Below, in pieces: positions 2,041 through 61,383 of a stretch of 64,000 bases of DNA. Made by a program: the position numbers and the translations under genes. The DNA comes from Paraspadella gotoi. Its lineage: Eukaryota; Animalia; Chaetognatha. Under the pieces are notes generated by a model that was not told where the DNA came from, made no database searches, and saw only the letters and a list, made by a program, of their open reading frames with translations. The stretch spans positions 22,904,833 through 22,968,832 of the forward strand of contig CM119263.1 in the NCBI GenBank assembly GCA_051294375.1. The letters are read 5' to 3'. Numbering within the stretch: the first letter of the stretch is position 1; each line of letters begins with the position of its first letter.

Positions 2041-3263
2041 TAGTCGAATCTGCTTATCGCAGATTCCGACTCGAAATTCACTTTGTCGGTCCGTAGGTCC
2101 CACCCCAAAATCTTGTCGATAAATAATTTTTATCATATCAGAACCTCGAATTATGATAATTTATGCAAAAAATATTATGTCCGTTCGTCCGTCCGTCTGT
2201 ATGTCTGTCTGTCTGTCTGAAGGTCCGTCCCACCTTTTCATTAAACTCCAATTACTTGTGATTGGAGGAATAGATTGGATTGAAATTTTGTGTGTGGGTA
2301 GGGAAGTGTGTGATTGAGCTGGATATAAATTTTGATGGAAAAGTGCGAGTGGAAATGAGTTTAAATGGAAAAAACAAAAGTCACATTTACTTGAAGTATT
2401 TTATTATCTTTATTAAAAATTGGATAGATAGTGGAGGACGGTATTTTTAGAGATAAATAATTCGAGACCAAAGTAAAATGAATGTGAATTTATTTTAGCG
2501 TAACATCGAAGGGGAAAATGTACGCAGGAATAAAATAACAATGACTTTTACATGAACTACTTTGTTATGAAAGTAGGAATGTGAAAAGGGAATGGAATTT
2601 TAGGCCGAGAGATATTATTTACATTTATGTAATTCCCAGAATTCTCTCTCTCAATCTTCACTAGATAAATTTAAATAAAATTTTGTGTGTAGGTAGGAAA
2701 GTATGTAAGTATATAAGCTGGATATAAATTTTTGATGGAATCGTAGGAGTGAAAAAGAATTTAAATTAGAAAACCAAAAGACAGATTTATTTGAATTTTT
2801 AAAAGTTTCCCTCTCTCTATCTCTCTCTGATTGATTGATTGATTGACTGACCAAATTACGCCAGTTGACCAAATTATGCTAGTTGACCAAATTATGTCAG
2901 TTGACCAAATTATGTCATTTGTCCAAATTATGTCAGTTGACCAAATTATGCCAGTTAATCAAATTATGCCAGTTGACCAAATTATGCCAGCTGACCAAAT
3001 TATGCCAATTGACAAAATTATGCAAGTTAACCAAATTATGCAAGTTGGTATTGGCGCAGCGACTGGTAATGATTGATAGATCAATTGATTTATAAATTTT
3101 TTCATAGATTTATTAAGAAGTCTGTCATGATTTGTTATGTTACGTTTTGTTATGATCTGTTAGGATGACAAATTGAAAGTCAGAAAATATTACCTTGATT
3201 CATCATCGGATTAGCTGATTACCGCTTAATTATCGTTGGCAGACCCGACGTTTGCTCAAACTT
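2041..3263 (+). mobile_element. Helentron-associated non-autonomous element (HINE/DINE-1-like), family A
   Basis: 5' inverted repeat AGTCGAATCTGC...GCAGATTCCGACT, a GTCC/GTCT microsatellite (~2180-2220), central repeats, 3' subTIR GCAGACCCGAC plus hairpin GTTTGCTCAAAC, T-run flanks. Related copies at 11867-13256 and 32537-33662. Confidence 0.75.
2845..3047 (+). repeat. 18-bp tandem repeat (GTTGACCAAATTATGCCA, about 11 copies) inside HINE-A
   Basis: Directly visible. It explains the repetitive ORFs 2843..3076 and 2883..3095. Reverse-complement arrays lie at ~8135-8730 and ~12075-12240. Confidence 0.9.
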
Positions 3264-3443
3264 TTTTTTTTTTAGGTTTTTATCTATCGTTTCTCTCTCT
3301 CATATTTTTTCATTCTTTATTTTCTTTCAACGCTTTTGCTCGTATCTCGTTCTCTTCTCAAGTTGTCACCTCTTCCTTCTCGTCAACCCTACATAATCGG
3401 CGAATTCGCTTATCCTTTACATTATGGCAACGGGAGGATAGCC

Positions 3444-3682
3444 TGTGATACCCGGGGCGCGGGGTATCTCACAAACTGGCGTAGGGGCTGCGGACCCTCA
3501 GTGACCGCCTCATGTCACTGGCATGTTTATACCGGCACCGTCACATTTAAGCCAGAACCGGGATACCCAGGGATTGAACCCGGGACGCACGGATGGAATG
3601 AGATGATTTAGCCTGCTCAGCCATTGAGACGAGGCTGAGGACGGACAGCAGTGAGGCAGCTTTAAGTCTTGCTGCCACAACA
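3444..3682 (-). mobile_element. tRNA-containing LTR-like element, family 2 (Helenus-like LTR or tRNA-SINE)
   Basis: Minus strand runs TG...CA. It has a 5' hairpin GGCAGC-N10-GCTGCC, A box TGGCTGAGCAGG (3612-3623), B box GGTTCAATCCC (3570-3580), and a purine tract AAAAAGGAAA just upstream (3683-3692). No TSD seen. Confidence 0.6.
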
Positions 3683-4495
3683 TTTCCTTTTTAACCATTA
3701 GACTTTCGAGTCTCCCTTCTCCTTATCTTTCTAATTCCCTGTCGAGGATTCGTCATCCGCGGAAGGGATTTCCCTTCTTCGTCTCCTCATTCTTTTCCCC
3801 CCCCCAATATTTCTTTCGCGGGAATTTTTTTCTTTTCAGATGAGCAATTTTCCCCATCCCTAATTTCCTTTCATTTGATTTTAATTTTAATTTTGAAATT
3901 AAGTAAAAGAATTGTTGAACGTTTTTTTTTTCCCAATTCCATCATTAGTTCAATTCAAGCCTTTAATTATCTCTATTGTCTCTCTCACTATTATTAAGCT
4001 GTGACCACTAATCACTAATCAAATCAATCAAGGCGACAAGTATGGTTCAGATTTTGCTGGAAACAAGATGTAAAATAACGAGGCATTTGCGGGGGCGTTT
4101 AAATCACCGATATTCAAATTTACCGTGAACATTACCAAAAAAAAAAAAAAAAGAATTATTGTTGTAATTGCCAAAGAAATTATATATTTTACCGATTTGA
4201 ATTATGTTCTATAATAATTTTACCTCACTGTAAAGAGATGTTATGATCTTCAAAAAAGTACGAAAGAGAGAGGAAAAAAAGAAAGAATATGGAGAAAGAG
4301 AGAGAGAGAGANNNNNNNNNNGAGAGAGAGAGAGAGCGCAAGACTCCTGCGAAATGTTATTTTTCTCTTCATCACGTCGGTGATCGTCTTCAGTTTCTTA
4401 TGCCATGGTGTTTATGGATTCCCACGTCAAGCCACCACAGGAGATATGAAACTTTCACGAAGTATTTTCGCTGGGAAAAAAATTGAGGCAGAGGA

Positions 4496-7586: not shown

Positions 7587-7675
7587 TATGGTGGACTAAA
7601 ATCAAACAACCGTTCATCACCGGCCATTGGTGCCGGAGGCAAGTCATTCGCCTCAAAACCCAAAGGTCCGGGGTT
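7587..7675 (+). mobile_element. Truncated tRNA-containing LTR (family 1), 5' part
   Basis: TATGGTGGACTAAAATC...GGCCATTGGTGCCGGAGGCAAGTCATTCGCCTC...GGTCCGGGGTT matches the reverse complement of ~11530-11617. Confidence 0.8.
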
Positions 7676-7704: not shown

Positions 7705-9814
7705 CAAGTATGTCATCCTTCAGAATCGCTTCCCCCGGGGGCGGTGCTGGGGCGGCCGCCCGCGGAGTGGCCCCGCGGGGCCGCCCGCGAGGGCAGGAGG
7801 CAAATCTTTACCGCCTGGGGGCGGCCCCCTGTAAGCCTCTTTTTTGGGGCCCCAAGGGCCACTCCAGGGGGAATCCCCCTGGGGCTAGAAAAACCTTTCC
7901 CCCCGGGGCCACCCCCCAGGGGGATGGATTTTTCTGCCCCCCTGGAATGGCTTCTCTCCCTCCCTATCTCTCTCTTTCCTCTCTCTCTCCTCTCTCTCTC
8001 TTTCTCCTTCCCTGCTGTTTCTCTCTCTCTCTTTCTCATCTATTTTTTTTTTCCATCTTTCATTATAATAAAATATAAAATTAATATTTTTCACTTCTAT
8101 TAATCATCAATGGACCAATAGCTGTACCAATACCAACTTGCATAATTTGGTCAACTTACATGCTATGTCATTATCTTGTAAGAGTGATGAAGGCGCTTAA
8201 ACCACCAAAGCCTGTCCAAGATCAGGGGCAAGATAGCTTATTTATTAAATGAATGGATAATTTTATATTGGTTGTACCAATTTCATAATTTAGTCAAATG
8301 ACATAATTTGGTCACCTGACATAGATTTGGTCACTAATATAATTGAGTCAACTTTTAGAATTTGGTAAACTTTTATAATTTGGTAAACTTTGATAATTTG
8401 GTTAACTTTAACATATTTGGTCAACTAGCAAAGTTTGGTAATTTTTTTGATAGACATTATGTATAGACTTTCGATTTTTCGTTGTTTGGGCATTAAGAGA
8501 AAAACATTTTTATTTGTTTTGACAACAAATTTTTTTATAATTTAGTCAATTTACTTAATTGGTTAACCTTCATAATTTTATTAACTTTTATAATTAGGTG
8601 AACTTTATAATTTGGTAAACTTTCATCATTTGGTTAAAATTTATATTTGGTAAACTTCATCATTTGGTAAACTTTTATATTTGGTAAACTTTTAATAATT
8701 TAATCAACTTACATAATTCAATCAACTTTAAGTCCATCCTATATTAGCATTAAACTCTAATTATTTGTAATTAAATAGATGGATTGGAATAAAATTTTGT
8801 ATATGGGTAGAAAAGTATGTGATTGAGCTAAATATAAAGTTTTGCTAACTTTGTCTCTAAACCGTCAGCCTCTGCTAAACAACGTGAGTTCATCATAGGC
8901 AATCTACAAACTGATGATTATTAATTACAAATCCTAAATGAAAAATTTTATTTCACGATGTGAAATAATATTGATCATGAATTAAAAATCTTGATAAATG
9001 TTTTTATTATTTTTTTGTGGGGCTCCATTTTAAAAAATTATGTCTCTCTCTATCAGTCCATCAGTATGTCGATCCAACAAAAAAAAAAGGAAAAAAAATG
9101 AAAAAAAAAAAGACAGATGACTGATTAGCTTTTTACGCACTAAATTTTTTGGCCACGTCCTACATTGTTTGCTCAAACTTGTTTCTATATCTTTTTAATT
9201 AAAATAAAATAATTGGGTTAAAAATACAAATATTTATAAATTTTTTAGATAAAATAAGGAATAAACAAATTAACAAAAATTTGAAAAAAATGTATATTTA
9301 ATTCAGTTACATGAAAACAAGTCTTGAAAGAAAGAAAACAAAATTTAGAGAAAGAGAAAAAAAAGAAAGAGAGAATGAGAAAAAGAGAGAAAAAGAGAAA
9401 GAGAGAAAGAGAAAGAGAGAGAGAGAAAAAAAAAGTAGAGGAGAAAGAGAGAGAGAGAGAGAGAGTACAGAGTAGGGAGAGATATTCTCAGATACAATAA
9501 CATAGTCAGAAAGTATATTTTCTCATCTAAACTTTGCTCTCTCCCTAACTCGCCCGCTGGGGGAGCAGTTTTTTTGCTCCCCAGGGTTAGCCCCAGGGGC
9601 AGACTTTTTTGGCCCCAGGGGGCTAAGCATTAGGGGCGCCCCTAATAGACCCCAAAATGTTGGCCCCTGGGGGAACCCCCCTGGGCGGCCCCCTGAGGCA
9701 ATCCAGAGGGGCGGCCCCCTCAATGACCATTTTACTGCTCCCCTGGAATAGTGCCCCTGGGGCCGCCCCTAGAGCCACCCCGGGGGCGGAGGATTTGGGA
9801 GATGACATATTCTC
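7705..9814. mobile_element. 2.1-kb non-autonomous TIR element with long, imperfect, GC-rich arms and an 8-bp TSD
   Basis: Termini (A)AGTATGTCATC / GATGACATATTCTC. CCAAATCT is duplicated at 7697-7704 and 9815-9822. Removing the element restores the CAGTA-MITE sequence seen at ~17690-17730. Confidence 0.7.
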
Positions 9815-10032
9815 CCAAATCTGCAAAAAAATCTTAGTAAAACCTGTTTTAAAAATTTTTAGACCATTTATTGTGATTTAAGTACTAGTATAAATAAGGC
9901 CTACTGCGTAAATTGTTAAATTTATAAAAAAAATTTTTTTATACATAAATCTTCATTAGTATAATGTTGTTCGTTCCTCACTTTTAGAATTTTTATTAAA
10001 GTTAAATTTAGAAATTTTACTACGCCTTACTG
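9815..10032. mobile_element. Partial CAGTA-ended foldback MITE (right arm)
   Basis: Matches ~17712-17920 and ends ...TACTACGCCTTACTG. Confidence 0.8.
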
Positions 10033-11094
10033 TACATCGATCTAGTTTTTTAGGACAGTTATTTCTTTATTTCTATGCATATATAATAGGACGGGCTAAA
10101 ATTTAATATTTTTTACCAACGACCAAACCAGCCCGAGCGCGAGTCTCGTGTCTCGTCAGCCACGCATCCAGCCTCCTCTTCCTCCTCACAATATGAAATA
10201 GTCTGAAATAAAAGTCTTTTGTCATTTTACAATCAAATTTATTTATGATGTTAGATTTTGATAAAATTCCTTTTCCTCACGCATGGAAGCATTTTAATAT
10301 TTAACAATATATAAGAAATGCTTTACAAATTTTAAAAATCATATTGATAAATCGGTTAAAATTTAAAAAAACCTTAAAAAATCATTATCATTATCATCAT
10401 TCAATAAATTAGATAGTTTATATTAATTTTTATAGACAAATCATTAAAATTACAAAAAATTGTAATAATTAAAAGTTACATAAACAAATTTTTTACATTA
10501 TAGAGTATTTTAATAATATGAAATAGCATCCATGCGTTTAACTATATGGTCTTTCAATACAATTGAAACATTCTTTGAAATATTATACCACTTCATTGAT
10601 ATGGAATTATGGATGCCAGGTACTCTGAAAGTGAACAAACGAGACTGTGAGAGAGCCTTGTAAGAGTGATGGAGGCCTTAAACCACCAAAGACTGTCCAA
10701 AGTCAGGGGCAAGATAGCTTGATTAATGATTATTGATTAATAAATGAATGGTGAAGAGACAGTAATTATTGTTATGTGTTAGTGACAGAACCGTTCAATA
10801 TAAGTAGAAATCTACTATGAAATTAAATTCAATAGGGGCGGGGGTTCAAAACTTTATTCTTGAAGTCTACTTTTAGGTAAAAAAAGAATTTTTGAAAAAA
10901 GTTCGATTTTAATGCTTTTATTGTTGTTATTTAAAAAATGTCTAAATTTTCGTTTGAGCAGGTGCTTAATTCAATTTCTTAACCACCTTACTGAGTTAGT
11001 CTCCCCCTAATATAAGCAGTCCTTGAGCTTCAGATCAGGCTGTAACACCATGTTACAGGCGGGTTAAGCGCCCCGTCCCTCTTAACTGCCAGAC

Positions 11095-11162
11095 GACCAC
11101 CGGGCTAGAACCCCGGACCTTTGGGTTGGGAGGCGAATGACTTGCCTCCGGAACCAATGGCC
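11095..11162 (-). promoter_or_regulatory. tRNA(Gly)-like Pol III A/B-box module in the 3' LTR
   Basis: Near-identical to the module at 11515-11582. Confidence 0.65.
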
Positions 11163-11514
11163 GCTGATGAACGGTTGGTGGATTTTAGTCCACCATACAT
11201 CCCCCCCTCCCATAGGGAGAAGTCTGTTGCCTCTCTTCAGTGAATTGTTGTTTGGTGGAAAGTTCATCACCAAGTTGAGGCATGTCGCCTGATGTGTTGT
11301 GGGCGGAAAGTGCATCGCCAGGTTGAGGCATGTTGCCTGAAAGTGTTGTTGTTGCTGTTGTGTTCGGAAGTCGGGCTCACCATTGAAGAGACAGTAATTA
11401 TTGTTATGTGTTAGTGACAGAACCGTTCAATATAAGCAGTCACTGAGCTTCGGATCAGGCTGAAACACCATGTTACAGGCGGGTTAAGCGCCCCGTCCCT
11501 CTTAACTGCCAGAC

Positions 11515-11582
11515 GACCACCGGGCTAGAACCCCGGACCTTTGGGTTGGGAGGCGAATGACTTGCCTCCGGCACCAATGGCC
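11515..11582 (-). promoter_or_regulatory. tRNA(Gly)-like Pol III A/B-box module in the 5' LTR
   Basis: GGCCATT...GGTGGTC acceptor-like stem, A-box-like TGGTGCCGGAGG, TCGCCTCCCA as in tRNA-Gly(CCC), and T-arm CCGGG-GTTCTAG-CCCGG. The anticodon stem pairs poorly, so it is not a functional tRNA. Confidence 0.65.
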
Positions 11583-11866
11583 GTTGATGAACGGTTGGTG
11601 GATTTTAGTCCACCATAATGGATAATTTTTATGTTGGTTGTTCCAATGTTATAAAAAAAATTTTCGATCGTTTATGAGACTGGGGAGGAGGGGAGAGTGA
11701 GGGAAGAAGGGAAAGGTCACTTCAGTTCTTCCCGGATATGTCGGCATCAATAAATATTGGCTTATTGATCACGTGACAAAAAAAGAAGTAAACCGAAAAA
11801 CATTTTTCTGTCATTTATTTTAGAATATGAAATGGAAAAACTTGAGCGAAAAGTCGATTTCATGAG

Positions 11867-12680
11867 AACAAGTTTGAGCAAACAATGTCGGATCCGCCTA
11901 CGATAATTAAGTGGTAATCAGCGAATTTGATTATGAATCGCGTCAATTCTTTCTGACTTTCAATTTGTGATCTTAACAGATCATTACAAATCATAACATA
12001 ATTCTTTATAAATCTATGAACAAATCTATAAATCAATTGATCTATATCTATGAACCAGTAGCTGCTCCAATAACAACTTGCATATTTTGGTCAACTTGCT
12101 TATTTTGGTCAACTGATATAATTTGGTGACCTTTCATAATTTGGTCAACTGGCATTATTTTGTCAACTGGCATAATTTGATCAACTGGTATAATTTTTTT
12201 AAATGGCATAATTTGGTTAACTGGCAAAATATGGTCAACTTTGTTTTATTCCATTTAAACTCATTTCCACTCGCATGATTCCATCCAAACTTTATATCCA
12301 GCTCAATCACACAGTTTCTTAACCTGTAGAGAAGCTTGGCTCTCTACGCCTCTTAAGGTGAAGATGGTCCACTTGGTCGCAACTTATCTGACGAAAAGTA
12401 TCCCAAACGTTTTATGTAACTGAAGCTCGAAAGTCGGAAAGAAATAACGCGAAAATAAAATGTAAATAAATGTAATAAAAATGTAGAAAACGAGGTAAAA
12501 TCTGTAGAAAATCGAGATCAAATAGAATGATGAATCAATATGTGGAGGAGAAATCAAATAAAATCGTGATAAATCTTCAGTAAAAACGTAGTAGGAACTT
12601 TGTAAGAAAGTAGTTGTCGGTCTAGAGTGATCCAGTGAATCTGTATTTGGTCTTGTCTGAGCTCGTCCAAGTAAAGTTTG

Positions 12681-14400: not shown

Positions 14401-14815
14401 ATTGATGTCTTGTCATTACACCAAAAGTAACGTTATTTTCGAGAATTTCTATTTTTGTCATTCAATTTTGCTCTTACATAGTTATTGATCACGTGATCAC
14501 TGACCAACGACCACGAGGATTTTGCGATCGATTGACGACGAATTGCGTCATTATTCGGATAAGGTCTCCAGACCAATTTCGTGGAAATGGGAAAAAACAT
14601 TTACTTCTATCACTCCTTCCCTCCCTCCCTCCCTCCCTGCCTCTCTGAAATAACCTCCAATCTTAAATGATTCCGAGAAAAATTTCAGAAATGTCAACAC
14701 TCAAAAGACAAAACTTTATATTTTTTTATTATCCAGTATATTGTATAATTAAAAAGCATTTAATTCATTTGTTTTAAATGTCCCATCCTTTCTCTCCCAT
14801 TCCCATTCCCCAAAG

Positions 14816-15193
14816 ACCCGATCGAAGGTCCACATCAGCGGTCGTCGGCTGCAGAAACAAACGGTGGCGATCATCATGGGCGTGACTCTTTGCTTTCTCT
14901 TGCTCTGCCTCCCTTACACCATCTTCATCATCGTCAGCATCATCTTCCAGAAGGACATTGACTACGACACCAACACCTATAAGGTCATGGACGTCGTCTC
15001 CCTCTCCAACAATTCGGTCAACTTTTTCATCTATTATTTGTCCGGTTGCAAATTTCGCAACGAGTTCCTCCGCATCTTCTGCCCCTGGCGTTCGAGGCCC
15101 AAGAGGGACTTCAGCCCGCGAAAGGGCTCCTTCTCGGCGGCCAGGCGTCAGGGTCGAACCGTGATGACCTACTTTAGCAGTGGGGCTCCATGA
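14816..15193 (+). CDS. Same GPCR, terminal exon (TM6, TM7, helix 8); FMRFamide/RFamide-receptor-like group
   Basis: AAG acceptor after a pyrimidine tract, phase 0. TM6 VAIIMGVTLCFLLLCLPYTIF and TM7 SNNSVNFFIYYLSGCKFRNEF (NFxxY variant of NPxxY). Stop at 15193. Confidence 0.88.
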   Translation, partial: TRSKVHISGRRLQKQTVAIIMGVTLCFLLLCLPYTIFIIVSIIFQKDIDYDTNTYKVMDVVSLSNNSVNFFIYYLSGCKFRNEFLRIFCPWRSRPKRDFSPRKGSFSAARRQGRTVMTYFSSGAP

Positions 15194-17302: not shown

Positions 17303-17920
17303 CAGTAAGGCGTAGTGAAAGTTACATACGAAAATTCTAAATGTCAATTATGAACAACATACCATCAGTGAATATTAATATGTAAAAAAAATTAATTTTA
17401 TGTGTTTTAATTTTCGCAGTACGCTATATTTATATATAGTACTATCCTTATAAAATCGAAAAATTTCAAAATATGCTTTTCTTAATTTTGATTGCAGATT
17501 TGAATTCCTCGTCAAAAGTTGATAAAAGAAAATATAAATCATTTTTAAAAATTCTTTCATTAAGTGGGTTAAAAATTTAAAAAACTACATTTAATATATA
17601 AAAAGTTAATTTTCAGCTTAAAATATAGCTTTTTCTAATTTTTGACCCACTTAATGAAGGAATTTTTCAAAAAGAGTTATATTTCTTTTTATCAACTTTT
17701 TATGACGAATCCAAATCTGCAAAAAAATTTTAGAAAAAACTGTTTTGAAATTTTAATATTTATTGGATTAGTACTAGTATAAATATGGCCTACTGCGTAA
17801 ATTGTAAAATTTATTATAAATTTTTTTATTACATAAATGTTTATTAGTATAATGTTGTTCATTCCTTACTTTTAGAATTTTAATTAAAGTTAAATTTAGA
17901 AATTTTACTACGCCTTACTG
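17303..17920. mobile_element. CAGTA-ended foldback MITE
   Basis: TIR CAGTAAGGCGTAGT...ACTACGCCTTACTG with long imperfect inverted arms. An inverted copy lies at 22877-23494. Confidence 0.85.
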
Positions 17921-18872: not shown

Positions 18873-19205
18873 TTGTCTAACGTCTATTGGGCGGCCTGTG
18901 CAGGGGCGGGCAACCAACCCTGGTGCAGCAGCATATGTGGGCGAGACAGGCAAGTCTCTCTCAGACCGTTTCCAGCAGCATGTAAGACCCTACAGAGACG
19001 CGCGTGGGATATCATGTCCGCTATAGCAGAGCACGCAACGCTCAGTGGTCATTGATTCAGAGAGGAAGACTGTCTCGTGCTGTCCCATGACCCTAACTGG
19101 TTCTCAAGAGGTATTAGAGAGGCCATTTACATCAAGGCCCTCGAACCCTCTTTGACCGTATGGAGGACGATTCGTCTCCTCCAAACTATGATTCGCTTAT
19201 AAGAG
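18873..19205 (+). pseudogene. PLE GIY-YIG endonuclease remnant (frameshifts and a stop)
   Basis: Across frames it reads SNVYW.AC / AYVGETGKSLSDRFQQH / SAIAEHATLSGH*FREEDCLVLSHDPNWFSRGIREAIYIKALEPSL / GGRF / NYDSL, which are typical Penelope-clade endonuclease motifs. Confidence 0.88.
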
Positions 19206-22837: not shown

Positions 22838-24140
22838 CAGAAGGCTTCTTATTATAAAATGAAGTACTTCCGTCCACAGTAAGGCGTAGTAAAATTTCTA
22901 AATTTAACTTTAATTAAAATTCTAAAAGTGAGGAATGAACAACATTATACTAATGAATATTTATATAATAAAAATTTTTTTATTAAATTTGACAATTTAC
23001 GCAGTAGGCCATATTTATACTAGTACTAAACCAATAAATGTTAAAATTTCAAAACAGTTTTTTCTAAGATTTTTTTGCAGATTTGGATTCGTCATAAAAA
23101 GTTGATAAAAAGAAATATAACTCTTTTTGAAAAATTCCTTCATTAAGTGGGTCAAAAATTAGAAAAAGCTATTTTTTAAGCTGAAAATTAACTTTTTATA
23201 TATTAAATAAAGTTTTTTTAATTTTTAACCCACTTAATGAAAGAATTTTTAAAAATGATTTATATTTTCTTTTATCAACTTTTGACGAGGAATTCAAATC
23301 TGCAATCAAAATTAAGAAAAGCCTATTTTGAAATTTTTCGATTTTATAAGGATAGTACTATATATAAATATAGCCTACTGCGAAAATTAAAAAGCATAAA
23401 ATTAATTTTTTTTACAAATTAATGTTCACTGATGGTATGTTGTTCATAATTGACTTTTAGAATTTTCGTATGTAACTTTGACTATGCCTTAGTCCACAGT
23501 ACCCATATTTTTGTGACCAGAACCCGTTCCGAGAAAACTACTGGACCAAATTTATTGAAATTTGGAATGAACGATCCCTATGTGAATACTAATAAAACTA
23601 TCGAGGCGAATTTCAATATTTGATTCCTGAGCCGAGATATGGGGCCCCGGAGGGGTCACCCAAAGGGGCAAAAAATGGACAAAATTTTTTTTCAAAATTT
23701 TTACATTTTTACATTTACACTTCCACAAAAACGTATTTATTACCATAAAAATATAAATTTACCTTAATTTTCAGCTCCATGAACATCAGCAGTTCAAGTC
23801 AGATTTAGAATAATTTTGGAAAATTGGAAGTAAAACAATGAACCCATCTTTAAACCATGCTTAATTATTGAAAACTTATCAATTTTTTTTTATATGTTTA
23901 AAACGTCAATGCATCTGATGCTACTAAAAAAATTTAAAAAATGACAACAAAAAATTTATAGCTTTTTTCGGCCTCCCAGGGGTCCACCCTCCCAGGGCCC
24001 TGTATCTCTTGTCAGGGCTTGAATATCAAAATTCGCCACGATAGTTTCATTTATATTGTCATTAGGAAATTCGTAGTTTAGTGGGAACAGATTCTGGTCA
24101 CAAAAAAGGGGTACCTCATTTTATAATATGAAGCCTTCTG
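22838..24140. mobile_element. TA-flanked Tc1/mariner-type MITE with a nested CAGTA MITE in its left TIR
   Basis: TA|CAGAAGGCTTCTTATTATAAAATGAAGTAC versus GTACCTCATTTTATAATATGAAGCCTTCTG|TA. The TIR match resumes (TTTTTGTGACCAGAA) after the nested element. Confidence 0.8.
22877..23494. mobile_element. CAGTA-ended foldback MITE (inverted relative to 17303-17920)
   Basis: Near-identical reverse complement of 17303-17920. The track shows twin ORFs 17375..17560 and 23237..23422. Confidence 0.85.
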
Positions 24141-28886: not shown

Positions 28887-29348
28887 TGAAGAGAATTGTT
28901 ATGAGTTAGTGACAAAACCGTTCAATATCAACGAAGGAAATAGGCGTGGTTATTACGGGAGAAATAGGAGTTTTATTGACATAAGACAACGTTGGGATGA
29001 TGATAATTAACATAAGTAACATAAGTAGATTATGCAGAGAAAAAGGCAGGCAATAAACAATATAACAAATAGTTCATGTCTTCATGAGGAGTTTGATGTT
29101 AGTTTCTTGAAGGTAAGTTAATCAGAAAAAAAGACGGAGAAGCCAAGAGAGGCAGGCACTTGTTAATCCATTCTCAGCATTTATATAATCAGACAGTAAC
29201 ACCGTGTTACAGGAGGGAAAAGCGGCGCGTCCCTCTTAACTGCAAGGCGACCACCGGGCTTGAAGCCCGGTCCTTTGGGATGGGAGGCGAATGAAATGCC
29301 TGTTGCACCACTGATGAACTTTAGTCTGATGCATTTTAGTCTACCATA
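28887..29348 (-). mobile_element. Solo LTR of the tRNA-containing TRIM family 1 (diverged, with insertion ~28930-29182)
   Basis: TGAAGAG...GTTAGTGACAAAACCGTTCAATAT and ...CCACCGGGCTTGAAGCCCGG...TTTTAGTCTACCATA match the LTR. ATGG occurs on both sides (28883-28886 and 29349-29352). Confidence 0.82.
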
Positions 29349-42371: not shown

Positions 42372-45300
42372 TTGCGTAAAAAAAGGCAAAAAACCTTTAT
42401 CCTTCTTGTTCATGACTTCATTTTATTATTCGCTATTTTCGCCTCATGATTTCTTACGCTTTAACGCTGATGACTACAATCTTATTTGCATATTACCGAA
42501 ACATTCCTCCGTTACTCTTTTTTGAGTTTTGTCTATTTTTTTTCAGTTATAAATTTTCGTTAAGTGCCATTATGTTTCTTATCAGTTATTTTTAGAATTT
42601 AAAAAAGATTCACTATTCACATTATTGACTTTTTTGGAACTTTTGTAGTAGGGACCAACTCCAGAGATAATATAAAATTTCGACTATTAGCAAAGTACTT
42701 TTAGTTGTCTTGACTAAATATTTAAACAATCATTTTCAAAAAAAAATTATATTATACGTCTTGATTAATACATTAAATATTACTTGTCTTTTTTAATATT
42801 ATAAAATTTTTTTTTAGAAATCTTAAAATTTTTTGATGGATTCTGATAGAGCATTAAAAGTTAAATAAGAAATATAATTACAGCTTTTAAAAATTTTTAC
42901 GTTTTCTATGTGAAAAAATAAAAAAACTGATAAAATCATCGAAAGATGATGATGATGATGATTTTTTACGGTTTTTCTTATTTTTGACTCACTTATCATG
43001 AAAATATTTAAAAAAGAATTATACTTTGTGTAGACAACTTTTTATGAGCTATCTGAATCTGGTCTTAAAATTTAAAAATTATCAAAAAAAATTTTGGCCT
43101 TTCCTATTTATAAATAAATATTAAAAAATTAATTATTTGGGTATAGAGCCACATAAGAAATGTTTTGTCCATTGAAAGTATACTTAAAAATGTATAAATT
43201 TTCGTTTGAGCATATAATCATTCTAAATTTTTGATTCACTCCATTGAGTAGGAGTTTTATTTACACAAATAAACGAGGAGATAATAATATTAATAAAAAA
43301 ATGGTGATGATTAAAACGTTGGTTTAAAATATATAGTAAATAGTTCTTGAACGTGGCAATTTTGATGTTAGTTTCTTGAGGGTAAGTTGAAGACTGTCTC
43401 GTTTCCTCTCTCATCTCTCTCCCGTCGATTCCGTGAGGGAAGCCACCTCTCTGATTGGTCGAGAGAGAAGAAAAGGCAGAAAAGTCAAACGAGACAAGCG
43501 AGACAAGCGAGACAAGCTACGCGATCAATCCGTTTCCTGCGATGAACTAACGAAACTTTTCGCTTTCAACTTTCTCGTCTGTCTCCTTCTCTTTCATCTC
43601 TTTTCGTCAGACCTCATTGCATCCATCTCTCCATCGATCCGCTATTCTCTTCTTGACGCTTTTATGGACCGCGTAAATCTTCACCCCTGCCTCGAGAAAA
43701 ACATATCGCTAGACCCTAGACCCCCGTGCCGACGGGGCAGACGCGGGGATCAGGGGGTAGGGCGGTGGGGGGTTTTTAGACAGTGGGGGCCGGGGGGGGG
43801 GCATTTTGTCGATTGAGTTCTCACGAAGCACCTCTCGGGCGACGAGAGGAAAAGTTAGAAACTGGTCAAACGCAAATGATTGGACGTTTGTCAATCCAGA
43901 CAACTTAAGTGTCTTTGAACATAACAGTCACCGGTAAAACAGAAGAGGGGGGCCAATGAATTTTTATTTTCGCGTTTTATTTACTCAATCTTTTATTCAC
44001 TTTAAACAAACAGAGGGAAAGAATGTTCATTGTTTATCGTTTATCACAGGAAAACACATAAACAAACGAACGAACAAAGAAACTCAAGATTTTACAGTGA
44101 GGTTGCCATAATTTTTTTTTCCATCAACGATATGATACGTCGGATAACGGGCAACTTTTTGGTTTTAGAGTTGCTAAATTCATTAAATATATATGAAATG
44201 AAATTGGTACAACCAATATTAAAAAAAAATCATTCATTTAATAAATAAGCTATCTTGCCCCTGACTTTTGACAGGCTTTGGTAGATATATATATATTTAT
44301 ATATATATTGTATTGTATATAAAATTGGTGCAGCAAAGCACTTCGTTCCTCTTAAAAGCAGGACAGTGTGAGTGTAAGAGAGTCCTAGAGTACCATCTGG
44401 TTTTCTTATCAATAAAATGGTAAGTATAACGTGTTTGTATCCATAAAAACTGTGCAGTAAGGATTCAAAAAACATTAGTTATTGGTTAAGACTAAATGCT
44501 GTAATATAATTTAAAAACCTCGTATTTACTTTATTCTATTGCAATACGAATAACAAAGTTAAAACAATGTCACGTTCTCACCTTTAGTTGTTTTTTGTCC
44601 CATTTTGGCCAATAAACAAAAATTATTTTGTTGACCTCGTGCTGGTCGTTCAAAGCGCTCGACTAATGGCGCGAGAAAAACCGTGACGTCAAACGCTAAA
44701 AAGTCGAATGACCCGCGTTACGCGTTGGACCTTCTCTTCAGACGAAGCAGGTAACAACCGGGCTTGAAGGTCGCGGGTTCGCTTCCGATGAATATCAGGT
44801 TTTCACTGAGGTCAGGTTTTTCAGCTCCGACCTCGGACAATTTCCCAATTCGCCCGTTGCATCGTAGCGGCTGTCGGTTTAGAGGCCTGTGGCCAAATAT
44901 CTGACGAAGAGAATAGGATAGAACTGATTTAACGATCTTTGGAGTCCGGAAGATGATAAAGACCTGATAGGAACTCTGGGGCACAACTATCTACAACGCT
45001 TTAATCCCTTGTTGGATAGAAAATTATGTTTTTCTTCTAGATTGTCTTCGAATCAAATAACAAATAACAATTACGAATCTCGCTTAAAATCTAGTCTGCG
45101 AGAGATAAAAATAAACTTACAGGGATTTCAACCTGGACCGATATGAAAAGATTTGATTAAAGTTTAAACTCGTAATTTTTTTACAGTATATTATTTAGAA
45201 GAAGTTTGAAATTGCTTTGAACAACGATTTTATTTTCAAGCGAAAAGCGTACATGTTTTGGCTCTAATTCAGCGTCAAGTTAGATTTTGAAATGAGAGCG

Positions 45301-45995: not shown

Positions 45996-47824
45996 GTCAA
46001 AAGGTTGGAGATCTACTGTAGCTAGTACCCGATAGGACTTTTCTTCTTTCTGTCCCACGTTTAAACTTTAATGGACAAGAGTAAAGAAAAAGCAACAAAA
46101 ACTCGCTCAACCAAAAAGATTTAGTTCTTCCGCTGGTCGAGTCTGATTAACCAGAAGCGCAGGCTTCAATTCTTATGGCGCGAAACCCCAACGGCAATCG
46201 CTGCGCCCAAGTGGCTGCGCGCTCTTGCAAAAATCTCATTTTCTTTTCTAAAATAAAATCCATCCACGATGAAAAAGTGTTTTCTTCCTCCCGCCATTCA
46301 ATCCCTCCGCCCCCCCCGCCCCCCCACGTCATTCCACCTCTCTGTTTGTTTTTCATCAAAATTGAACCGAAAAAAAAAAAAAAAAAAAAAATCCGACAAG
46401 CGGGACAAGAAACAAAAACAACGTAGAAACAAAAGGCAACGAATCAACCGTGACAAGAAAAAGGGGAAGAGCCGTGGCACGGCGTGGCACGGCGTGGCGT
46501 GGAAGTGTCATGGATTCGTCGCAGTTGGCGAGGGTTGGAAGGGAGGAATGAGCTGCAGCATGTGCCGCTGGATACTGCTTATTCAAATCACGCAACCGAT
46601 GAGGATCACGGCCGACTGATCTGTACACAATGACGCCGGTCAGAGGGAGAGAAAGAGAATAGAGAGGAAGAGGTGAATATGAGAAAGGCCTATTGGTGAG
46701 TCGCTTCATTTTCTTGATTAATGACAAGGATCAGGTTCGTGAAGTGACGCCCAGTTCGGTTTTTGTCGTTAGGTAGTTTAGGTAATTAGGTAATTTATCT
46801 TATGGATAAAACTATTAAAATATTAACCGAAAATTTATTTTTGCCTATACTCTTTTTATTGGTCACGTAAAAGATAGTATTTAAAAACGTTGTTGGACTG
46901 AGTGGAAATGATAAATGCTTTTTGACGGATCAATTCATCATTTATTCCTGAACAAGAATAACTTCTTTACTTCAGAGAGCGTTCCATCGTCGCGACTGTT
47001 TTATTCTCTCTAATTCTTTCTTTCCTTACTTTATTGTTTATCTTTATATTCGTTTCCTTCCCCCTTTTTAATTTTTCTTTTTTTTAGATTTTTTAGATTT
47101 TTTTTAGATTTTTTTATAATTTTCGTTTCGCACTTCATCTGCCAGCTCCGCGGGCGGTTGTTGAAATATGTTACTTCGCAGTCGTTACTTGTGCTTTGCA
47201 AGCGTCGAGCAAATTTTTTGTTTTCTATTGGGATTATTCTTGCTATAAATATAATTTTCTCTGTTGATCAAAACAGTAACAACGAATACAAAATAAGAGA
47301 CTCGGCGAGTCACAAGATAAATTTTTTATGCCAAAATTGAAAGATGAAAACAGTAAAGCGATTTATTACAGTTGCAAGAATCCTGATCGTCTGTGATGGT
47401 CAAAAAATCTCGCACATAAAATACTGTAAGTAACTAAATCTCTTTTTTTATAGCTCTACTGTTTTGAAAATACCATTCATTTGTCATTTGCCAAGAAATT
47501 TTCATTCGTTAAAATATGCTCCAGAAACATCAAAATTAAAAACTATCGATTTATCATGTCATGTCTTTTCTCATGCGAATTAAAAGCACAATTAAGACTC
47601 ATGTGGCAGTCAAAAATTGTATTCTTCGTAAAATTTTCTAAAAAAAGTGCGTAAGAAGATAATTTTTGTCTGTCGTTTTACATTGACGTTAGTCTCCCAT
47701 CTATTAAATTGTACTTGTGGCGTTTTTAAACTAGTAAAATACTTTTTTCACGTACCGTCTTTATACAACGCGTCACTTATTCTTCTCTTTCCGCCTCGAA
47801 GCGCGTTCCAGACCGGCGCCCACG

Positions 47825-48463
<639 letters not shown>

Positions 48464-54984: not shown

Positions 54985-57413
54985 ATGAACTGGCTATATT
55001 ATTCACTGCATTTGGCGTTGGTGTTGACTTCCCTCTATTGTGTTGTTCAAGATGTGGAGCCGAAAACCGTATCGAGGGGCATCGAGACGGAAAATACGGT
55101 AAATTCGCTAAAGTCAGATATAGACGAATATAATAGGATCGGTTGTACCAATTTCATATTACTTAGTCACAAGTGAATCTTTGTCATTCTACGTAGGAAT
55201 GGGTTTTCTTGGAGAAATTTTGTTTTCGCTCAAAAATTGGAAAACTAAAAGTCAACCTTGCTCGGCCGAAGGTTTGAGTTGCAGAATTGTATAATTTATA
55301 TTTTAGAGCGATTTGTTTATTATTAAGGATAACTACCATCATCATGATTCATAACGATTGCAGAAATACAACAACACACGATTTTACATCTATTACGATG
55401 ATCCAAAAAGTTGGGAATTCGCGTACAAAAAAGCAAAAACTTGCGAAGAAAGAACTTCGCGATTCGTCGAACTTGATATGATTTGCAACTGCACAGAAGA
55501 GTAAAAATTAGCTCTTTTTCATTTCTTTGTTGTTCTTGCAATCTGATTTTTTTGGTCACTATTTTTCCTCCCTCGTTTCACCAGCTGCAAATGTGAAGGG
55601 CAGACCCGTTTCACTTCATCCCGCGACAGATGGTGGTACGTGGTGATGTCCAGATGCAGCAAGACTGGCGACCCGACCTCGGTGGGTTAAAACGCAGCGG
55701 CGATGAATAATATTTTGAAATAATTAATTATAACTACGTTAATATCAATAATAATAACTGAAGGGTTTAAGCGGTCACATCAATCTACATCTCACAAACG
55801 GAGATCCCGACGATGTGTTTCAATACGAATTTTCCTGCGACGAGTTTGGTGAATATCGCGAATTTGTGAATTTGTGATTTGTTAGAGAAAAAAAGAGATA
55901 GAAAATATAATTGTTATTGTTTCAGCCGTGCTACCTACGTCTTTGGCTTTTCTGGTCATCTTTCTCGTGCTGTTGGGCGTTTCTGTTTACTTTGCAGGTG
56001 AGATAGAAGTGTAAGTGAAAAATAAAAAAAAAAGGAAGAAAGAAATAAAAATTAAAAAAAAGTAAGTTCAAATTAATAAAAAAAATATTTGCACAATAGT
56101 TATGAATAAACCATTAATCTCCATTCCCCCTCACTCTTCAGTGCAACTCAAGAATCGACATCTGCTCCACTCCACCTTCAAGCTCTACCTGACAGCAGTT
56201 TGCTTCAAGTTGCTGCATCTCGTCTTTTCTATTCGATCGAAGGCGGAGTTCGCCCACACGGGCGTGGAATCTCTCTCCAACGACATGATTGGTGAGGCGA
56301 GAGGCTATTGGATAATCGACGTTAATAGTTACGTGATTGTGTTCGGGGGAAAACCTTGCGGACCCCCAACGGGTCGATGGGTGGCTGCAGACCAAAGAGG
56401 CAGCTTAAATGTTTGTTCCCGACAATTTTTGGTTTACTTCTCAGGTAGACCAGCCTGAATCTCTCTCTCTCTCTCTTTCTGCCTTCTCTCTCTATCCACA
56501 GGTGATTTCTTCTCCACCTGCGCCAACGTGTTCTTCGTGCTGTTGTTGATTCTGATGTCGAAAGGCTTTACCATCACCCGCGCCAGTATCTCTCCATCAG
56601 GAACGATGAAGATCATCGTTTTCTTCTTCATCTACTTCTTTCTCTCCATCGTCCTCTTTATCTCTGAGTCTTTGGTACGAAATATGGCCAATAGGCAAGT
56701 TCAGTCTGTCAGAAAGAGCTGACTGAGCAGTAATTTTCTGTGATCGGCAGTCCCGAAAATATTGTAAAGTTTTTAAATTATTTTTCGCCATCAAAAAAAT
56801 TCGCGAGTAAATTACTTTAATGTTTTCATGAGAGGTTTTAGTTTTAATACGTCGGCTGTATTATTTGTTCAAACTAAAGCAGCAAGAACTGAGACCGGAA
56901 TGTAACTAGAATACATGTCAATCTTTCTAAAAATTGAAAATCAGATTAAAATATATATATGAAGCTATATTTAAATCCGTACCTGTCAGTCTATCTGCTC
57001 CTTGTCATTATTCAATATTCAATGTCATTCTCAAAAACTTTCAAGACCTACGATCCGGCGCGTGACTCTTCCCGCTTCGACTCCGTGGCGGGTTGGTGCG
57101 TGGTGGGGCTTCACGCCGTCGGCTGGATTTGGTTCACTCGATCCATCGTCGTCACCCTTAAGAATTATCCCGAGAAGCTCAACTTCTACGCCCCCTTTTA
57201 CATCTTGCTTACAATTTGGTGAGGAGAATTTTTTGAGAATTTTTTTGATTTGCTTTTATAAAGTTTAATTTTATTTAGAATTTTAAATGTAAATGCTACC
57301 TTTTTGTGTATTATGATATGTCCATGATCCAATTTCACACTATTCATTTCTTACATTTATAATTATTAATTATTCATGTGTGGCAAAATCAATCTCGTTC
57401 TCTCCTCGTCGTC

Positions 57414-57485
<72 letters not shown>

Positions 57486-58137
57486 GTTTTTTATATTCAT
57501 TCGTACGGCTAAGTGGTCAATTCTTATTTTGTTAATGACTGAAGACTTAGGCTAAGTCTTAGCATCCTTTGTTCCCGTTTTCTCTCTGTTTTAACTCTGT
57601 TTTGTCTCCGTTTCTTTGACTCTAATAAAAATTCATTCTTGCTCTGAACTTCGTCTCGATCGTTGCCTCACATAGTTTCACATTAGGTTTCTCGCTCTGC
57701 CTGTCACGCTGATCCTGGCCAATCTCGTCATGGACAGTTGGGCTCGAGAGAAGATCGTCCACGGCGTCGAACTGACCACGTCATTCGGGGGTTTCCTCTT
57801 TTTCGCGGTAAGGGGCGCTTTCGTCGAGAGTGTCGCGGAATGAATGGTCCATTTCCTTACCCTCCCGTTTCAGATCCTTACCCGACCCACCGCGGCCAAC
57901 AAAAATTTTCCCTTTCACGTACGAACGACGCAAGTCGACGTCATCATGGAAAATGGAGATCGAATGGTGGAGAGAAGAAGAGGAAGAGGAGGGGGAGGTG
58001 GAGGAGGAGGAGGAGGAGAACCTTCGGATCCAACGAGTTTTCCCCGGGCGAACAATCGCTGCGATTACAATAGTAAAGGAGGAGGGAGGGAAGGAAGGAA
58101 CGAAGAAAGTAGGCGTGGTTTATTACGGGAGAAATAG
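54985..58137 (+). CDS. TMEM145: Transmembrane protein 145 (GPR180/TMEM145 family); exons 54985-55098, 55197-55271, 55364-55500, 55585-55681, 55764-55848, 55926-55997, 56142-56291, 56502-56674, 57046-57218, 57687-57807, 57874-58137
   Basis: Signal peptide followed by WVFLEKFCF, YYDDPKSW, SSRDRWWYVVMSRC, LTNG...FSCDEF, LKNRHLLHSTFK, LLILMSKGFTITR, YPEKLNFYAPF, WAREKIVHG and TRPTAANKNFPFHVRTTQ. All introns are GT-AG and in phase. The exact 3' end is uncertain. Confidence 0.93.
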
Positions 58138-58395
58138 GAAGAGTTTTATTGACATAGGAATACGTTGTGATGATTATAATTGACTTATATATTGTGTAGA
58201 TTATGCAGAGAAAAAGGCTGGTAGTGAACAATATACCAATTAGTCCGTAAGGAGTTTGATGTTAGTTTCTTGAAGGTAAGTTGAAGAGTGATCTCGTTCC
58301 CTCTCTCGTTTCTCTGCCGTCGGTTTCCTGAGGGAAGCCTCCTCTCTGATTGGTCAATAAGAAGAAAAGATGGAAAAGCCAAGAGAGGCAAGCGA
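58100..58395. repeat. Dispersed repeat of unknown class
   Basis: TAGGCGTGGTT(T)ATTACGGGAGAAATAGG...GATGTTAGTTTCTTGAAGGTAAGTT is shared with 28930-29160 and partly with 43360-43500. Confidence 0.7.
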
Positions 58396-59840: not shown

Positions 59841-60079
59841 GAGAGGGGAGAGAGGGAAGAGAAGAGAGAGATACAAGACATGTAAATGAATCTCTCGTAA
59901 GTGATCAACGTCTCTCTCTCTGTTTCTCTCTCTTCTCCTTCATCTTCTTCTTCATCCACTTAAGAAAAAAAAACGAATCTTTTTCCCATTATTGTATTCG
60001 GCGCCTCCTCTCCTTTTCTCGCCGCCGAAGCAAATAAAAAAAGTTTTCTCGAGAAAAAAACAAACAAAAGACACCCGTA

Positions 60080-61383
60080 ATGATTCGACGTCGTGTATCG
60101 TTTTCGTCGACGTCGCTAGTCGTCGCCCTCGTCGTCGTCGCTCTCGTCGCCCTTCCCGGCGTCAACAGCGGCGCCACCTCCAATGCCATTCACACTGGAA
60201 CGGGAGCTTCGACCGCCGGTCGACCGAGCATGGGAGGTGGCATGGGAGGCATGTTCTCCATGCTCCTCAATCGGGGCGGGAACAGGGGCGGAAACAGGGG
60301 CTCGGGTCTGCGGGGATTGCTGAGCAGCGTAATCGGGAATCGCGGGCAGCAAGGAACTGGGTCTAGTGGAGCCGGTGGCGCGGGCGCGACGCAGAACCTC
60401 CAAGGTCTGCTCGCCAGCGCGGGCGGCATTCAAGGCATCCTCAACAGCTTCGGAGCGGCGAACGGCGCCGCCTCCGGGGTAACCGCCACTCCGCCGGCAT
60501 TGTCTCCGGAACTCGTCCAGTCTCTCCTCAATCAATATCAGCAGCAAAATTTGGTTCCAGCCCCGACGATGCAGCCGACGACGCAGCCGCCGCCTCCGAA
60601 GCTGCCGCCGACGAAAGATTCCACGAACCCCTTCTTCGATCCTGGATCCTCGCAAACGACCAAGCAATTCTACTCGGCTCCGCAAGTAGCGGCGGCCTAC
60701 GGATCAAGTTACAACCAGCCTTACAACTACTACCCGTCCTACAATTACGGAAACGCCTACGATCCAACGAATTACGGAAATCAGGCCCCGTCGAATCAGG
60801 CCTCGTATAACGGAGGCTACAACGAATTTTACTTCCCCAATTACGGATACGGCGGGCCACAGCCGCAGCCGACCGTCGAAGTCACCACGACGCCCGTTCC
60901 CGCCGACGCCAACGACAACATGTTCAATCCGCTGGAGCATCCGGGAATGATGATGCCCGGCATGAACGGCATGATGCCGCCGATGCCGCCCCCGGCGCAG
61001 CCAGCCGCGCCAGGAGGGCAGCAGGTGGCCGGGACTGGGGCCGGCGGCGCCGATGATCCGAACGGTGGACAAGCGGCGCCGGGTCCGCCCCCGCCCGTCG
61101 GTAACGGGTTATTCGGCGCGATGGGGAACATGCCGATGATGATGGCGGCGGCGGCAGCAGGTTGAGTAATATTGGATAACTGTTTGACTGATTAATTGAT
61201 AAATTTTATATCTTCAAAAATAGTTTGCCTTGTTGAAGATTTTATTGCTTGATTGATAGATATATAATGATTAATTACTTAAATCTTCGTTTTGAAGGGA
61301 TGGATTGTCTTTGAAACCATTTGTTTTGTTTTTTTTCAGCCGCCCACGGACCTCTTCATCCGGAAGGAGGAATGGGACGGTAG
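60080..61383 (+). CDS. Secreted low-complexity G/P/Q/Y/M-rich protein; exons 60080-61160 and 61340-61383
   Basis: 360-codon GC-rich ORF with a signal peptide (LVVALVVVALVALPGVNS). A GT donor at 61161 and a TTTTCAG acceptor add AAHGPLHPEGGMGR*. Confidence 0.82.

What the first reader, a model, noticed from the sequence alone, without database searches (positions are those of the whole stretch)
10752..11617. Complete miniature LTR retroelement whose LTRs carry a tRNA-like Pol III module
Seen: two 234-bp LTRs flank only 186 bp of internal DNA. That DNA has a PBS (TGGTGAGCCCGAC, 1 nt after the 5' LTR) and a PPT. A 4-bp TSD is supported by an empty site at ~8245-8280. Each LTR contains a 68-nt tRNA-Gly-like fold with A/B boxes, preceded by a hairpin (GGTGGA-CTAAAA-TCCACC). 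Known: plant Cassandra TRIMs carry 5S sequence in their LTRs, and tRNA-bearing TRIMs called Helenus have been described from a limited set of genomes, with 4-bp TSDs in animals. The PBS matches the remembered tRNA-Trp complement TGGTGACCCCGAC at 12/13. Inference: this is a protein-free element transcribed by Pol III and mobilised by a Gypsy-type partner. It would normally be mis-annotated as two SINEs and may be a new family or host lineage.
Basis: partly seen in the sequence, partly recalled or inferred. Interest (0 to 1): 0.82.

Follow-up and report, generated by a model that had tools for sequence, protein, structure and literature searches.

The report
Twister-ribozyme mini LTR retrotransposon (animal)
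A small, protein-free, high-copy jumping element in an animal genome carries in each terminal repeat a worn tRNA-like sequence (likely an RNA polymerase III promoter) followed by a twister-type RNA fold that is predicted to cut the transcript into a 420-base unit, which would close into a circle and likely be copied by a Gypsy helper, a route so far described for plant elements with a different ribozyme.

Summary
The mini LTR element is real. It lies on the minus strand at 11617-10752, with TA...CA ends, a PBS, a PPT and a 4-bp TSD. The window also holds an empty paralogous site and a solo LTR with its own TSD, and sequencing contigs show hundreds of different flanks ending at the same termini. 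Two corrections: the 3' LTR is 446 bp because of a 212-bp insertion, and the tRNA-like part does not fold or score as a tRNA. The fold covaries across three repeat families in this window, and its P1 segment is self-complementary in all three. Predicted cuts in both LTRs release a 420-nt RNA without terminal redundancy, so it would need to circularise, as plant LTR retrozymes do. Cleavage, circles, Pol III use, helper and host are untested. The twister lead came from earlier scan notes on other DNA of this same genome, which had found the family repeatedly; I tested it here. Verdict: Helenus-type TRIM with retrozyme architecture, a new variant of a known kind.

The parts
11384..11617 (-). 5' LTR, 234 bp, begins TA and ends CA
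   Evidence: 6 differences in 234 nt to the 3' LTR with the insertion set aside
10752..11197 (-). 3' LTR, 446 bp = 234 bp plus a 212-bp secondary insertion
11596..11615 (-). 7-bp hairpin at the LTR 5' end (3' LTR copy at 11176-11195)
   Evidence: z -3.18, 0 of 200 shuffles
11515..11582 (-). degenerate tRNA-like head: A-box-like 11576-11566, B-box-like 11532-11522 (3' LTR copy at 11095-11162); likely Pol III promoter
   Evidence: 93 of 3000 shuffles; not detected by ARAGORN or Rfam
11435..11510 (-). P5-type twister fold in the 5' LTR; putative general-base G at 11497; predicted cut between 11486 and 11485
11015..11090 (-). twister fold in the 3' LTR; predicted cut between 11066 and 11065; one G-U pair in pseudoknot T1
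11066..11485 (-). predicted 420-nt cut-to-cut RNA unit (candidate circle)
   Evidence: inference
11370..11382 (-). PBS, 12 of 13 to the tRNA-Trp PBS; the mismatched base is not listed as a variant at the 3% threshold in four runs
11198..11383 (-). 186-bp non-coding internal region with a ~53-bp internal duplication
11200..11211 (-). polypurine tract, followed by TG (11199-11198) that is absent from integrated 5' ends
10748..10751 (+). left TSD ATGG
11618..11621 (+). right TSD ATGG
10805..11016 (.). 212-bp secondary insertion just 3' of the 3' LTR twister, 8-bp duplication; itself repeated in the genome
8253..8256 (+). single ATGG at the paralogous empty site
   Evidence: joints 10720 to 11617
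28887..29348 (-). old solo LTR of the same family (78% over the main block), TA...CA, ATGG on both sides, own insertion, twister core broken
7587..7675 (+). truncated 5' LTR piece (hairpin to B box)
10655..10715 (+). twister fold of a second repeat family, the target into which this element inserted (decayed copy at 8173-8234)
3476..3556 (-). twister fold of a third family, downstream of another A/B-box head near 3570-3625

Best explanation
This is a non-coding, high-copy LTR retroelement (Helenus-type TRIM) whose LTRs each join a tRNA-like head, likely a Pol III promoter, to a twister fold predicted to self-cleave, so it likely works as an animal LTR retrozyme. Steps: (1, inferred) Pol III starts at the tRNA-like head of the 5' LTR and reads through, since the element strand has no run of four T until the secondary insertion. 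(2, predicted) Both twisters cut at U|AA, possibly as a dimer through the self-complementary P1 segment, and release a 420-nt RNA with no terminal repeat. (3, inferred from plant retrozymes) A host ligase closes it into a circle. (4, inferred) A Gypsy reverse transcriptase, likely of the CsRn1 type, primes with tRNA-Trp at the PBS and runs more than once round the circle, which rebuilds two LTRs without strand transfer. (5, partly shown) The integrase trims 2 nt from each end, giving TA...CA termini, and makes a 4-bp TSD in AT-rich targets.
For: LTR anatomy, TSDs, empty site and solo LTR. Sharp termini with unrelated flanks in 4 of 4 runs laid, and one joint type with 4 bp between two LTR ends (tables 5 and 5c). 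Twister: a strict descriptor finds 4 sites in 64 kb, all in these repeats; it hits 1 of 5000 LTR shuffles and 9 times in 40 window shuffles, never more than once per shuffle. A covariance model built from this family's two LTRs alone retrieves family 3 (E 8e-4) and two family 2 copies (E 1.4e-3 and 0.056). On an unfitted MAFFT alignment of 5 copies, 8 of 13 pairs change on both sides, including one pair in each pseudoknot; 89% of cells pair against 25-47% in slid controls. Rfam independently gives weak twister hits on families 2 and 3 (E 0.52; E 0.039). P1 is fully self-complementary in all 4 strict hits, with three different sequences. At two of the four LTR differences inside the fold, about 98% of read depth carries the pairing base (positions 11442 and 11463). 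Twisters cut at U-A in the UAA loop and tolerate flaws in P1, P2 and P4. Retrozyme circle model. CsRn1 signature.
Against: Rfam gives this family's twister no hit at E<=10, and the hits on the other two families are far below the gathering scores. P2 has only 2 Watson-Crick pairs plus a mismatch (or 3 pairs with a bulge) instead of 4. The nested part of the twister fold scores -8 to -10 kcal/mol against -25 for a competing fold, with pseudoknots not counted. The descriptor was tightened after I had seen the motif; the loose version hit 29 of 2000 LTR shuffles and many AT-rich sites in the window. The covariation rests on three families that may share ancestry; pairs changed on both sides were matched by 61 of 500 shuffles. 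This copy's 3' twister has a G-U in pseudoknot T1, and pseudoknot flaws lower activity. P1 is dispensable in twisters, so a dimer is not required. The 420-nt circle folds no better than shuffles (z -1.0), unlike the strongly paired plant retrozyme RNAs. The tRNA-like head is weak by itself. The solo LTR has lost the twister core.
Confidence: 0.62

Rival explanations
1. The twister is active, but transposition uses linear RNA in the ordinary way. Either only the 5' ribozyme cuts before packaging (trimming the tRNA head and leaving about 100 nt of repeated R-U5), or uncut RNA is packaged; circles would be by-products.
For: Twisters process 5' ends of RTE-type retrotransposons. A competing fold could slow cleavage. 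Most Helenus have no described ribozyme and still transpose.
Against: Both LTRs carry the same motif, and P1 is self-complementary in three families, which fits paired cutting.
Confidence: 0.26
2. A plain Helenus TRIM. The twister-like segment is an inactive relic or a chance fold, and the element is transcribed by Pol III or Pol II and reverse transcribed with normal strand transfer.
For: No Rfam twister hit for this family; short P2; nested fold far from the minimum energy; broken core in the solo LTR.
Against: Descriptor rate 1 of 5000 shuffles; retrieval of two other families by the model; compensatory changes in both pseudoknots.
Confidence: 0.11
3. Two tRNA-derived SINE copies that happen to flank a spacer.
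For: The LTR has A/B boxes near its 5' end, and LTR depth exceeds internal depth about 4.7-fold.
Against: Fixed CA end with no tail, PBS and PPT at the exact junctions, one 4-bp TSD round the whole unit, and a high-copy internal region.
Confidence: 0.01

Closest known systems
Helenus TRIMs / proposed TRIMp3 (Kojima 2024, PMC10886601; main text parts 1-5 of 6 and supplement parts 1 and 5-11 of 11 read)
   Same: Short non-coding LTR element, tRNA-like A/B boxes in the LTR, PBS, PPT, 4-bp TSD in animals, solo LTRs. The tRNA-Trp PBS is shared with Helenus-2 of Synergus wasps and Gypsy-32_NVi. TA-starting LTRs occur in five wasp families.
   Different: No ribozyme is described for Helenus in the parts read. 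None of five short motifs of this element occurs in the supplement (line breaks could hide a match). The tRNA-like head is near the LTR 5' end and has no T-run after it, whereas many Helenus LTRs show one (read by eye).
Plant LTR retrozymes (Cervera et al. 2016, PMC4918200; review PMC7761336; passages read)
   Same: Non-coding LTR element with a self-cleaving motif in each LTR, PBS, PPT, 4-bp TSD, solo LTRs and Gypsy dependence. The cut-to-cut RNA lacks an R repeat.
   Different: Type III hammerhead rather than twister; tRNA-Met PBS; 600-1000-nt units; no tRNA-derived promoter. The 2020 review states that metazoan retrozymes lack LTRs, PBS and PPT. Circles are shown in plants, not here.
Twister ribozyme, type P5 (Rfam RF02684; PMC6154101, PMC11662667, passages read)
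   Same: Order of helices, UAA cleavage loop, G-A before T1, L4 of the form U-T1-N-A-T2, two pseudoknots, UAA after the closing helix.
   Different: P1 is reduced to a 6-nt self-complementary segment, P2 is shortened, P3 and P5 are both present, and the score is below Rfam detection.
Twister variants of Schistosoma Perere-3 (PMC8501958, passages read)
   Same: Twister with a defective P1 tied to a retroelement in an animal.
   Different: Non-LTR autonomous RTE element with one ribozyme at the 5' end.
CsRn1-clade Gypsy elements (PMC2582038, PMC3630058, passages read)
   Same: tRNA-Trp PBS and 4-bp TSD.
   Different: Autonomous. No such partner was found here, and the paper reports no target preference, whereas flanks here lean to AT-rich 4-mers with a TA core.

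Membership tests
Helenus (TRIMp3) | TRIM under about 1 kb: two LTRs, no coding capacity | tested here: met
   866 bp (654 without the insertion); the one 114-aa frame across it has no Pfam hit
Helenus (TRIMp3) | PBS and PPT at the ends of the internal region | tested here: met
Helenus (TRIMp3) | 4-bp TSD (animal families) | tested here: met
   two insertions in the window plus an empty site; 4 bp between adjacent LTR ends
Helenus (TRIMp3) | tRNA-derived sequence in the LTR with boxes A and B | tested here: inconclusive
   A/B motifs 44 nt apart, kept in the solo LTR, 93 of 3000 shuffles; T-arm region resembles Helenus LTRs by eye; no ARAGORN or Rfam tRNA hit; no alignment to host tRNAs was possible
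Helenus (TRIMp3) | Transcription by RNA polymerase III | not testable with these tools
   also unvalidated for described Helenus
LTR retrozyme | Self-cleaving ribozyme motif in each LTR | tested here: met
   motif and covariation only; activity untested
LTR retrozyme | The ribozyme is a type III hammerhead | tested here: not met
   no hammerhead by descriptor on either strand or by Rfam
LTR retrozyme | tRNA-Met PBS | tested here: not met
   PBS is tRNA-Trp-like
LTR retrozyme | Unit-length circular RNA accumulates | not testable with these tools
   only contigs were available
Twister ribozyme | UAA at L1, G-A before T1, pseudoknots T1 and T2, P4 | tested here: met
Twister ribozyme | 4-bp P2 and a paired P1 | tested here: not met
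   P2 has 2 Watson-Crick pairs plus a mismatch; P1 is a 6-nt self-complementary segment; such flaws are tolerated in tested twisters
Twister ribozyme | Rfam gathering score | tested here: not met
   no hit for this family; 19.5 and 23 bits for the other two
Twister ribozyme | Site-specific self-cleavage | not testable with these tools
   needs an in vitro assay
tRNA-derived SINE | Variable 3' tail and variable-length TSD | tested here: not met
   fixed CA end in hundreds of contigs

The most novel reading that the evidence does not exclude
An animal lineage of LTR retrozymes in which a Pol III tRNA-type promoter drives a transcript whose two twister ribozymes must pair through a palindromic P1 to cut. 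Only complete two-LTR transcripts, not the far more numerous solo LTRs, would then yield the 420-nt circle that a Gypsy enzyme copies. This would be the first natural obligate-dimer twister and the first LTR retrozyme outside plants.
Probability: 0.33. Interest if true: 0.88.

Novelty: new variant of a known kind. Interest (0 to 1): 0.72.

Why it matters
It links two separately described kinds of parasite, tRNA-promoter TRIMs (Helenus) and ribozyme-bearing LTR retrozymes, and puts the latter in an animal, where the 2020 review says retrozymes lack LTRs, PBS and PPT. It offers a concrete role for genomic twisters, most of which have none assigned (abstract listing). It also gives sharp, cheap tests: a cut position, a 420-nt circle, and a monomer-versus-dimer comparison. 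Four literature searches listed no paper describing a twister inside an LTR element; that library lacks most subscription journals.

Tried and rejected
No whole genome is held for this window, so no genome-wide census, host tRNA set or helper search was possible. No RNA holder was listed; run X9 is only guessed to be RNA, so it says nothing on expression. LTR-core and twister-core patterns found 0 matches in viral contigs and metagenome contigs. A PBS-junction pattern gave 24 viral loci; none matched the element by blastn, and the two inspected lay inside unrelated reading frames. The PBS 13-mer occurs in 0 papers. Three protein searches for host placement found nothing; the atlas gave mixed animal phyla. 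Hammerhead: none. HDV-like: a loose descriptor gave 10 plus-strand and 1 minus-strand matches in this copy and none in the solo LTR; no shuffle control was run and I treat them as chance. The Rfam sR38 snoRNA matches are far below threshold. Self-priming: no complement to the PBS longer than 5 nt seen in the LTR (by eye). I first dismissed a twister by eye because I read the B-box loop as L4; the earlier scan notes led me to the right register. The bacterial promoter scan is not relevant to this host. Depth ratios (about 2,400 for the internal part, 11,400 for LTRs) are not copy numbers by the tool's own warning and are probably inflated; only the flank counts are used as lower bounds.

Full report
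Observation. The element reads 11617 to 10752 on the minus strand. The 5' LTR is 234 bp, the internal part 186 bp, and the 3' LTR 446 bp because a 212-bp insertion with an 8-bp duplication interrupts it. With the insertion set aside the LTRs differ at 6 of 234 sites. ATGG flanks both ends, and a paralogous copy of the flanking repeat has one ATGG at 8253-56; contigs in three runs also join 10720 to 11617 without the element. A solo LTR at 28887-29348, 78% identical over its main block, has the same termini and ATGG on both sides. A truncated piece lies at 7587-7675.

Family evidence. No assembly was available, so I laid contigs of five coded runs: X4, X5, X9, X10 and X1, X4, X5, X9. Loose ends with low agreement (0.41-0.48) pile up at the two LTR ends. 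At the U3 end (11197) the counts are 141, 129, 102 and 28 contigs in X1, X4, X5, X9, with 37 and 40 more one base further in X1 and X4, about what a chance C would give. At the U5 end the three listed places sum to 257, 268 and 181 in X1, X4, X5. The table shows only six places per run, so these are partial tallies. Integrated copies therefore start at TA, not at the TG that follows the PPT inside the element; 13 contigs in X5 extend two bases further and could be TG-ended copies. A 2-nt trim at each end explains this (inference): one spacer base plus the retained tRNA base at U5, and the TG at U3. TA-starting LTRs already occur in five wasp Helenus families. Consensus letters next to the ends suggest AT-rich targets with a TA core, like the ATAT and TATA preferences of 4-bp Gypsy families in Drosophila. 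The PBS base that differs from the tRNA-Trp complement is not listed as a variant at 3%, so it is a family trait.

tRNA-like head. A- and B-box-like motifs (consensus recalled) lie 44 nt apart and keep that spacing in the solo LTR; 93 of 3000 LTR shuffles give such a pair. The ends of the 68-nt segment pair like an acceptor stem (z -2.7 and -2.2 in the two LTRs, -1.1 in the solo), but the fold is not a cloverleaf. ARAGORN and Rfam do not call it a tRNA. 'Gly' rests only on CCC at the anticodon position, read by eye. The element strand has no T4 run from the 5' LTR to the insertion, which is compatible with Pol III read-through but unremarkable by chance.

Twister. Earlier scan notes on the same genome pointed to a twister, and I then tested it. 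Directly after the head each LTR reads P5, UAA, P2', G-A, T1', a 6-nt P1 segment, UAA, P2, T2, P3 hairpin, P4, L4, P4', P5'. This is the P5-type order of the Rfam consensus printed. A loose descriptor hit 29 of 2000 LTR shuffles and many AT-rich sites. A strict one, tightened afterwards with letters from the Rfam consensus, gave 4 sites in the window: both LTRs, the repeat this element is inserted in (10655-10715, plus strand) and a third family behind another A/B-box head (3476-3556, minus strand). It hit 1 of 5000 LTR shuffles and 9 times in 40 window shuffles. A covariance model built only from the two LTRs recovered the solo LTR (E 2e-10), family 3 (8e-4) and family 2 (1.4e-3, 0.056) among 12 matches at E<=5; two of the 12 were antisense hits to the P3 hairpin, one of them at E 0.036, and four were weak (E-values rough). 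On a MAFFT alignment of 5 copies (the solo LTR and two further decayed family 2 copies left out), 13 pairs were scored: 89% of cells paired, 8 pairs with changes on both sides, including one in T1 and one in T2. Covariation score and paired cells were reached by 0 of 500 shuffles, the pair count by 61 of 500, and slid controls paired 25-47%. Only three families contribute, so this is support, not proof. P1 is self-complementary in all three families with different sequences (duplex -8 to -11 kcal/mol). Against: Rfam misses this family, P2 is short, the nested fold is about 16 kcal/mol above a competing fold with pseudoknots uncounted, and the 420-nt circle is not unusually structured. Each LTR of this copy has private changes in the fold, so this copy may be less active than the family.

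Mechanism. Twisters cut at U-A in the UAA loop, here 11486|11485 and 11066|11065, 420 nt apart. Cutting at the same site in both LTRs leaves no repeated R region, which is the argument for circular templates in plant retrozymes. Priming by tRNA-Trp with a 4-bp TSD matches CsRn1-clade Gypsy elements, and Kojima ties animal Helenus to Gypsy; no helper was found here. Shown: anatomy, termini, TSD, multi-copy state and the conserved fold. Inferred or predicted: Pol III, cleavage, dimer, circle and helper.

Host. The window has GPCR, CD225 and TMEM145 exons. For one TMEM145 exon, 5 of the 10 top clusters looked up carried names: two spider entries, a chiton, a leech and a nemertean, at 39-47% identity. 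The host is an animal, probably an invertebrate, but is not placed, so a new host lineage is neither shown nor excluded.

Comparison and novelty. It works like a plant LTR retrozyme but fails membership on ribozyme class and primer. It fits Helenus on every structural test that could be run, with the tRNA homology inconclusive. Papers seen: PMC10886601, main text parts 1-5 of 6 and supplement parts 1 and 5-11 of 11 (fungal parts 2-4 unread, apart from the motif search); passages of PMC4918200, PMC7761336, PMC11662667, PMC8501958, PMC6154101, PMC3276498, PMC2582038, PMC3630058, PMC6934838 and PMC13570524; others as search listings only. Searches listed no twister-bearing LTR element. The scan has noted this family many times in this genome; those notes are leads, not independent support. 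Verdict: new variant of a known kind, interest 0.72.

Noticed in passing
PMC10886601 Data S1, Helenus-2_SyJa and Helenus-2_SyUm LTRs: By eye these two published LTRs, the only Helenus with a tRNA-Trp PBS in the parts read, hold a hammerhead-like core with possible loop-loop pairing, which the paper does not mention. They may be hammerhead LTR retrozymes in wasps. Not tested with a tool.
   Followed up: no
window 3400-3690 (-): Third family: A/B-box head followed by a cleaner twister fold (4-bp P2, 8-nt self-complementary P1). Single copy in the window; ends and TSD not resolved.
   Followed up: partly
window about 10547-10747 and 11622-11650 (+); also 8175, 6110, 44250 (-), 39200 (-): Second high-copy twister-bearing repeat family, the target of this insertion; several decayed copies in the window.
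   Followed up: partly
window 10805-11016 and 28932-29187: Both interrupted LTRs took an unrelated insertion at nearly the same AT-rich spot just 3' of the twister; many contigs also break there. The solo's insert recurs at 58099-58282.
   Followed up: partly
window 17306-17920 and 22877-23491: 615-bp palindromic MITE-like pair, 96% identical, with pieces at 9815-10032 and 42856-43078.
   Followed up: no
window 18900-19150 (+): Frameshifted fragment that reads like a GIY-YIG endonuclease of a Penelope-like element (motif recalled).
   Followed up: partly
window 60074-61165 (+): 363-aa G/P/M/N-rich ORF with a hydrophobic N-terminus, no Pfam hit and no homologue found; resembles a secreted matrix protein.
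   Followed up: partly
window 55800-57900, 47740-47970, 14800-15190: Exons of a divergent TMEM145, a CD225-domain gene and a rhodopsin/Srw-type GPCR.
   Followed up: partly
window 2700-3270, 8280-8730, 11870-12330: Dispersed repeat with an internal 18-bp tandem array.
   Followed up: no
run X10 (organism B): Five low-depth contigs lay on the stretch, one spanning internal region, PBS and LTR with 4 differences in 151 nt; a related species or carry-over.
   Followed up: no
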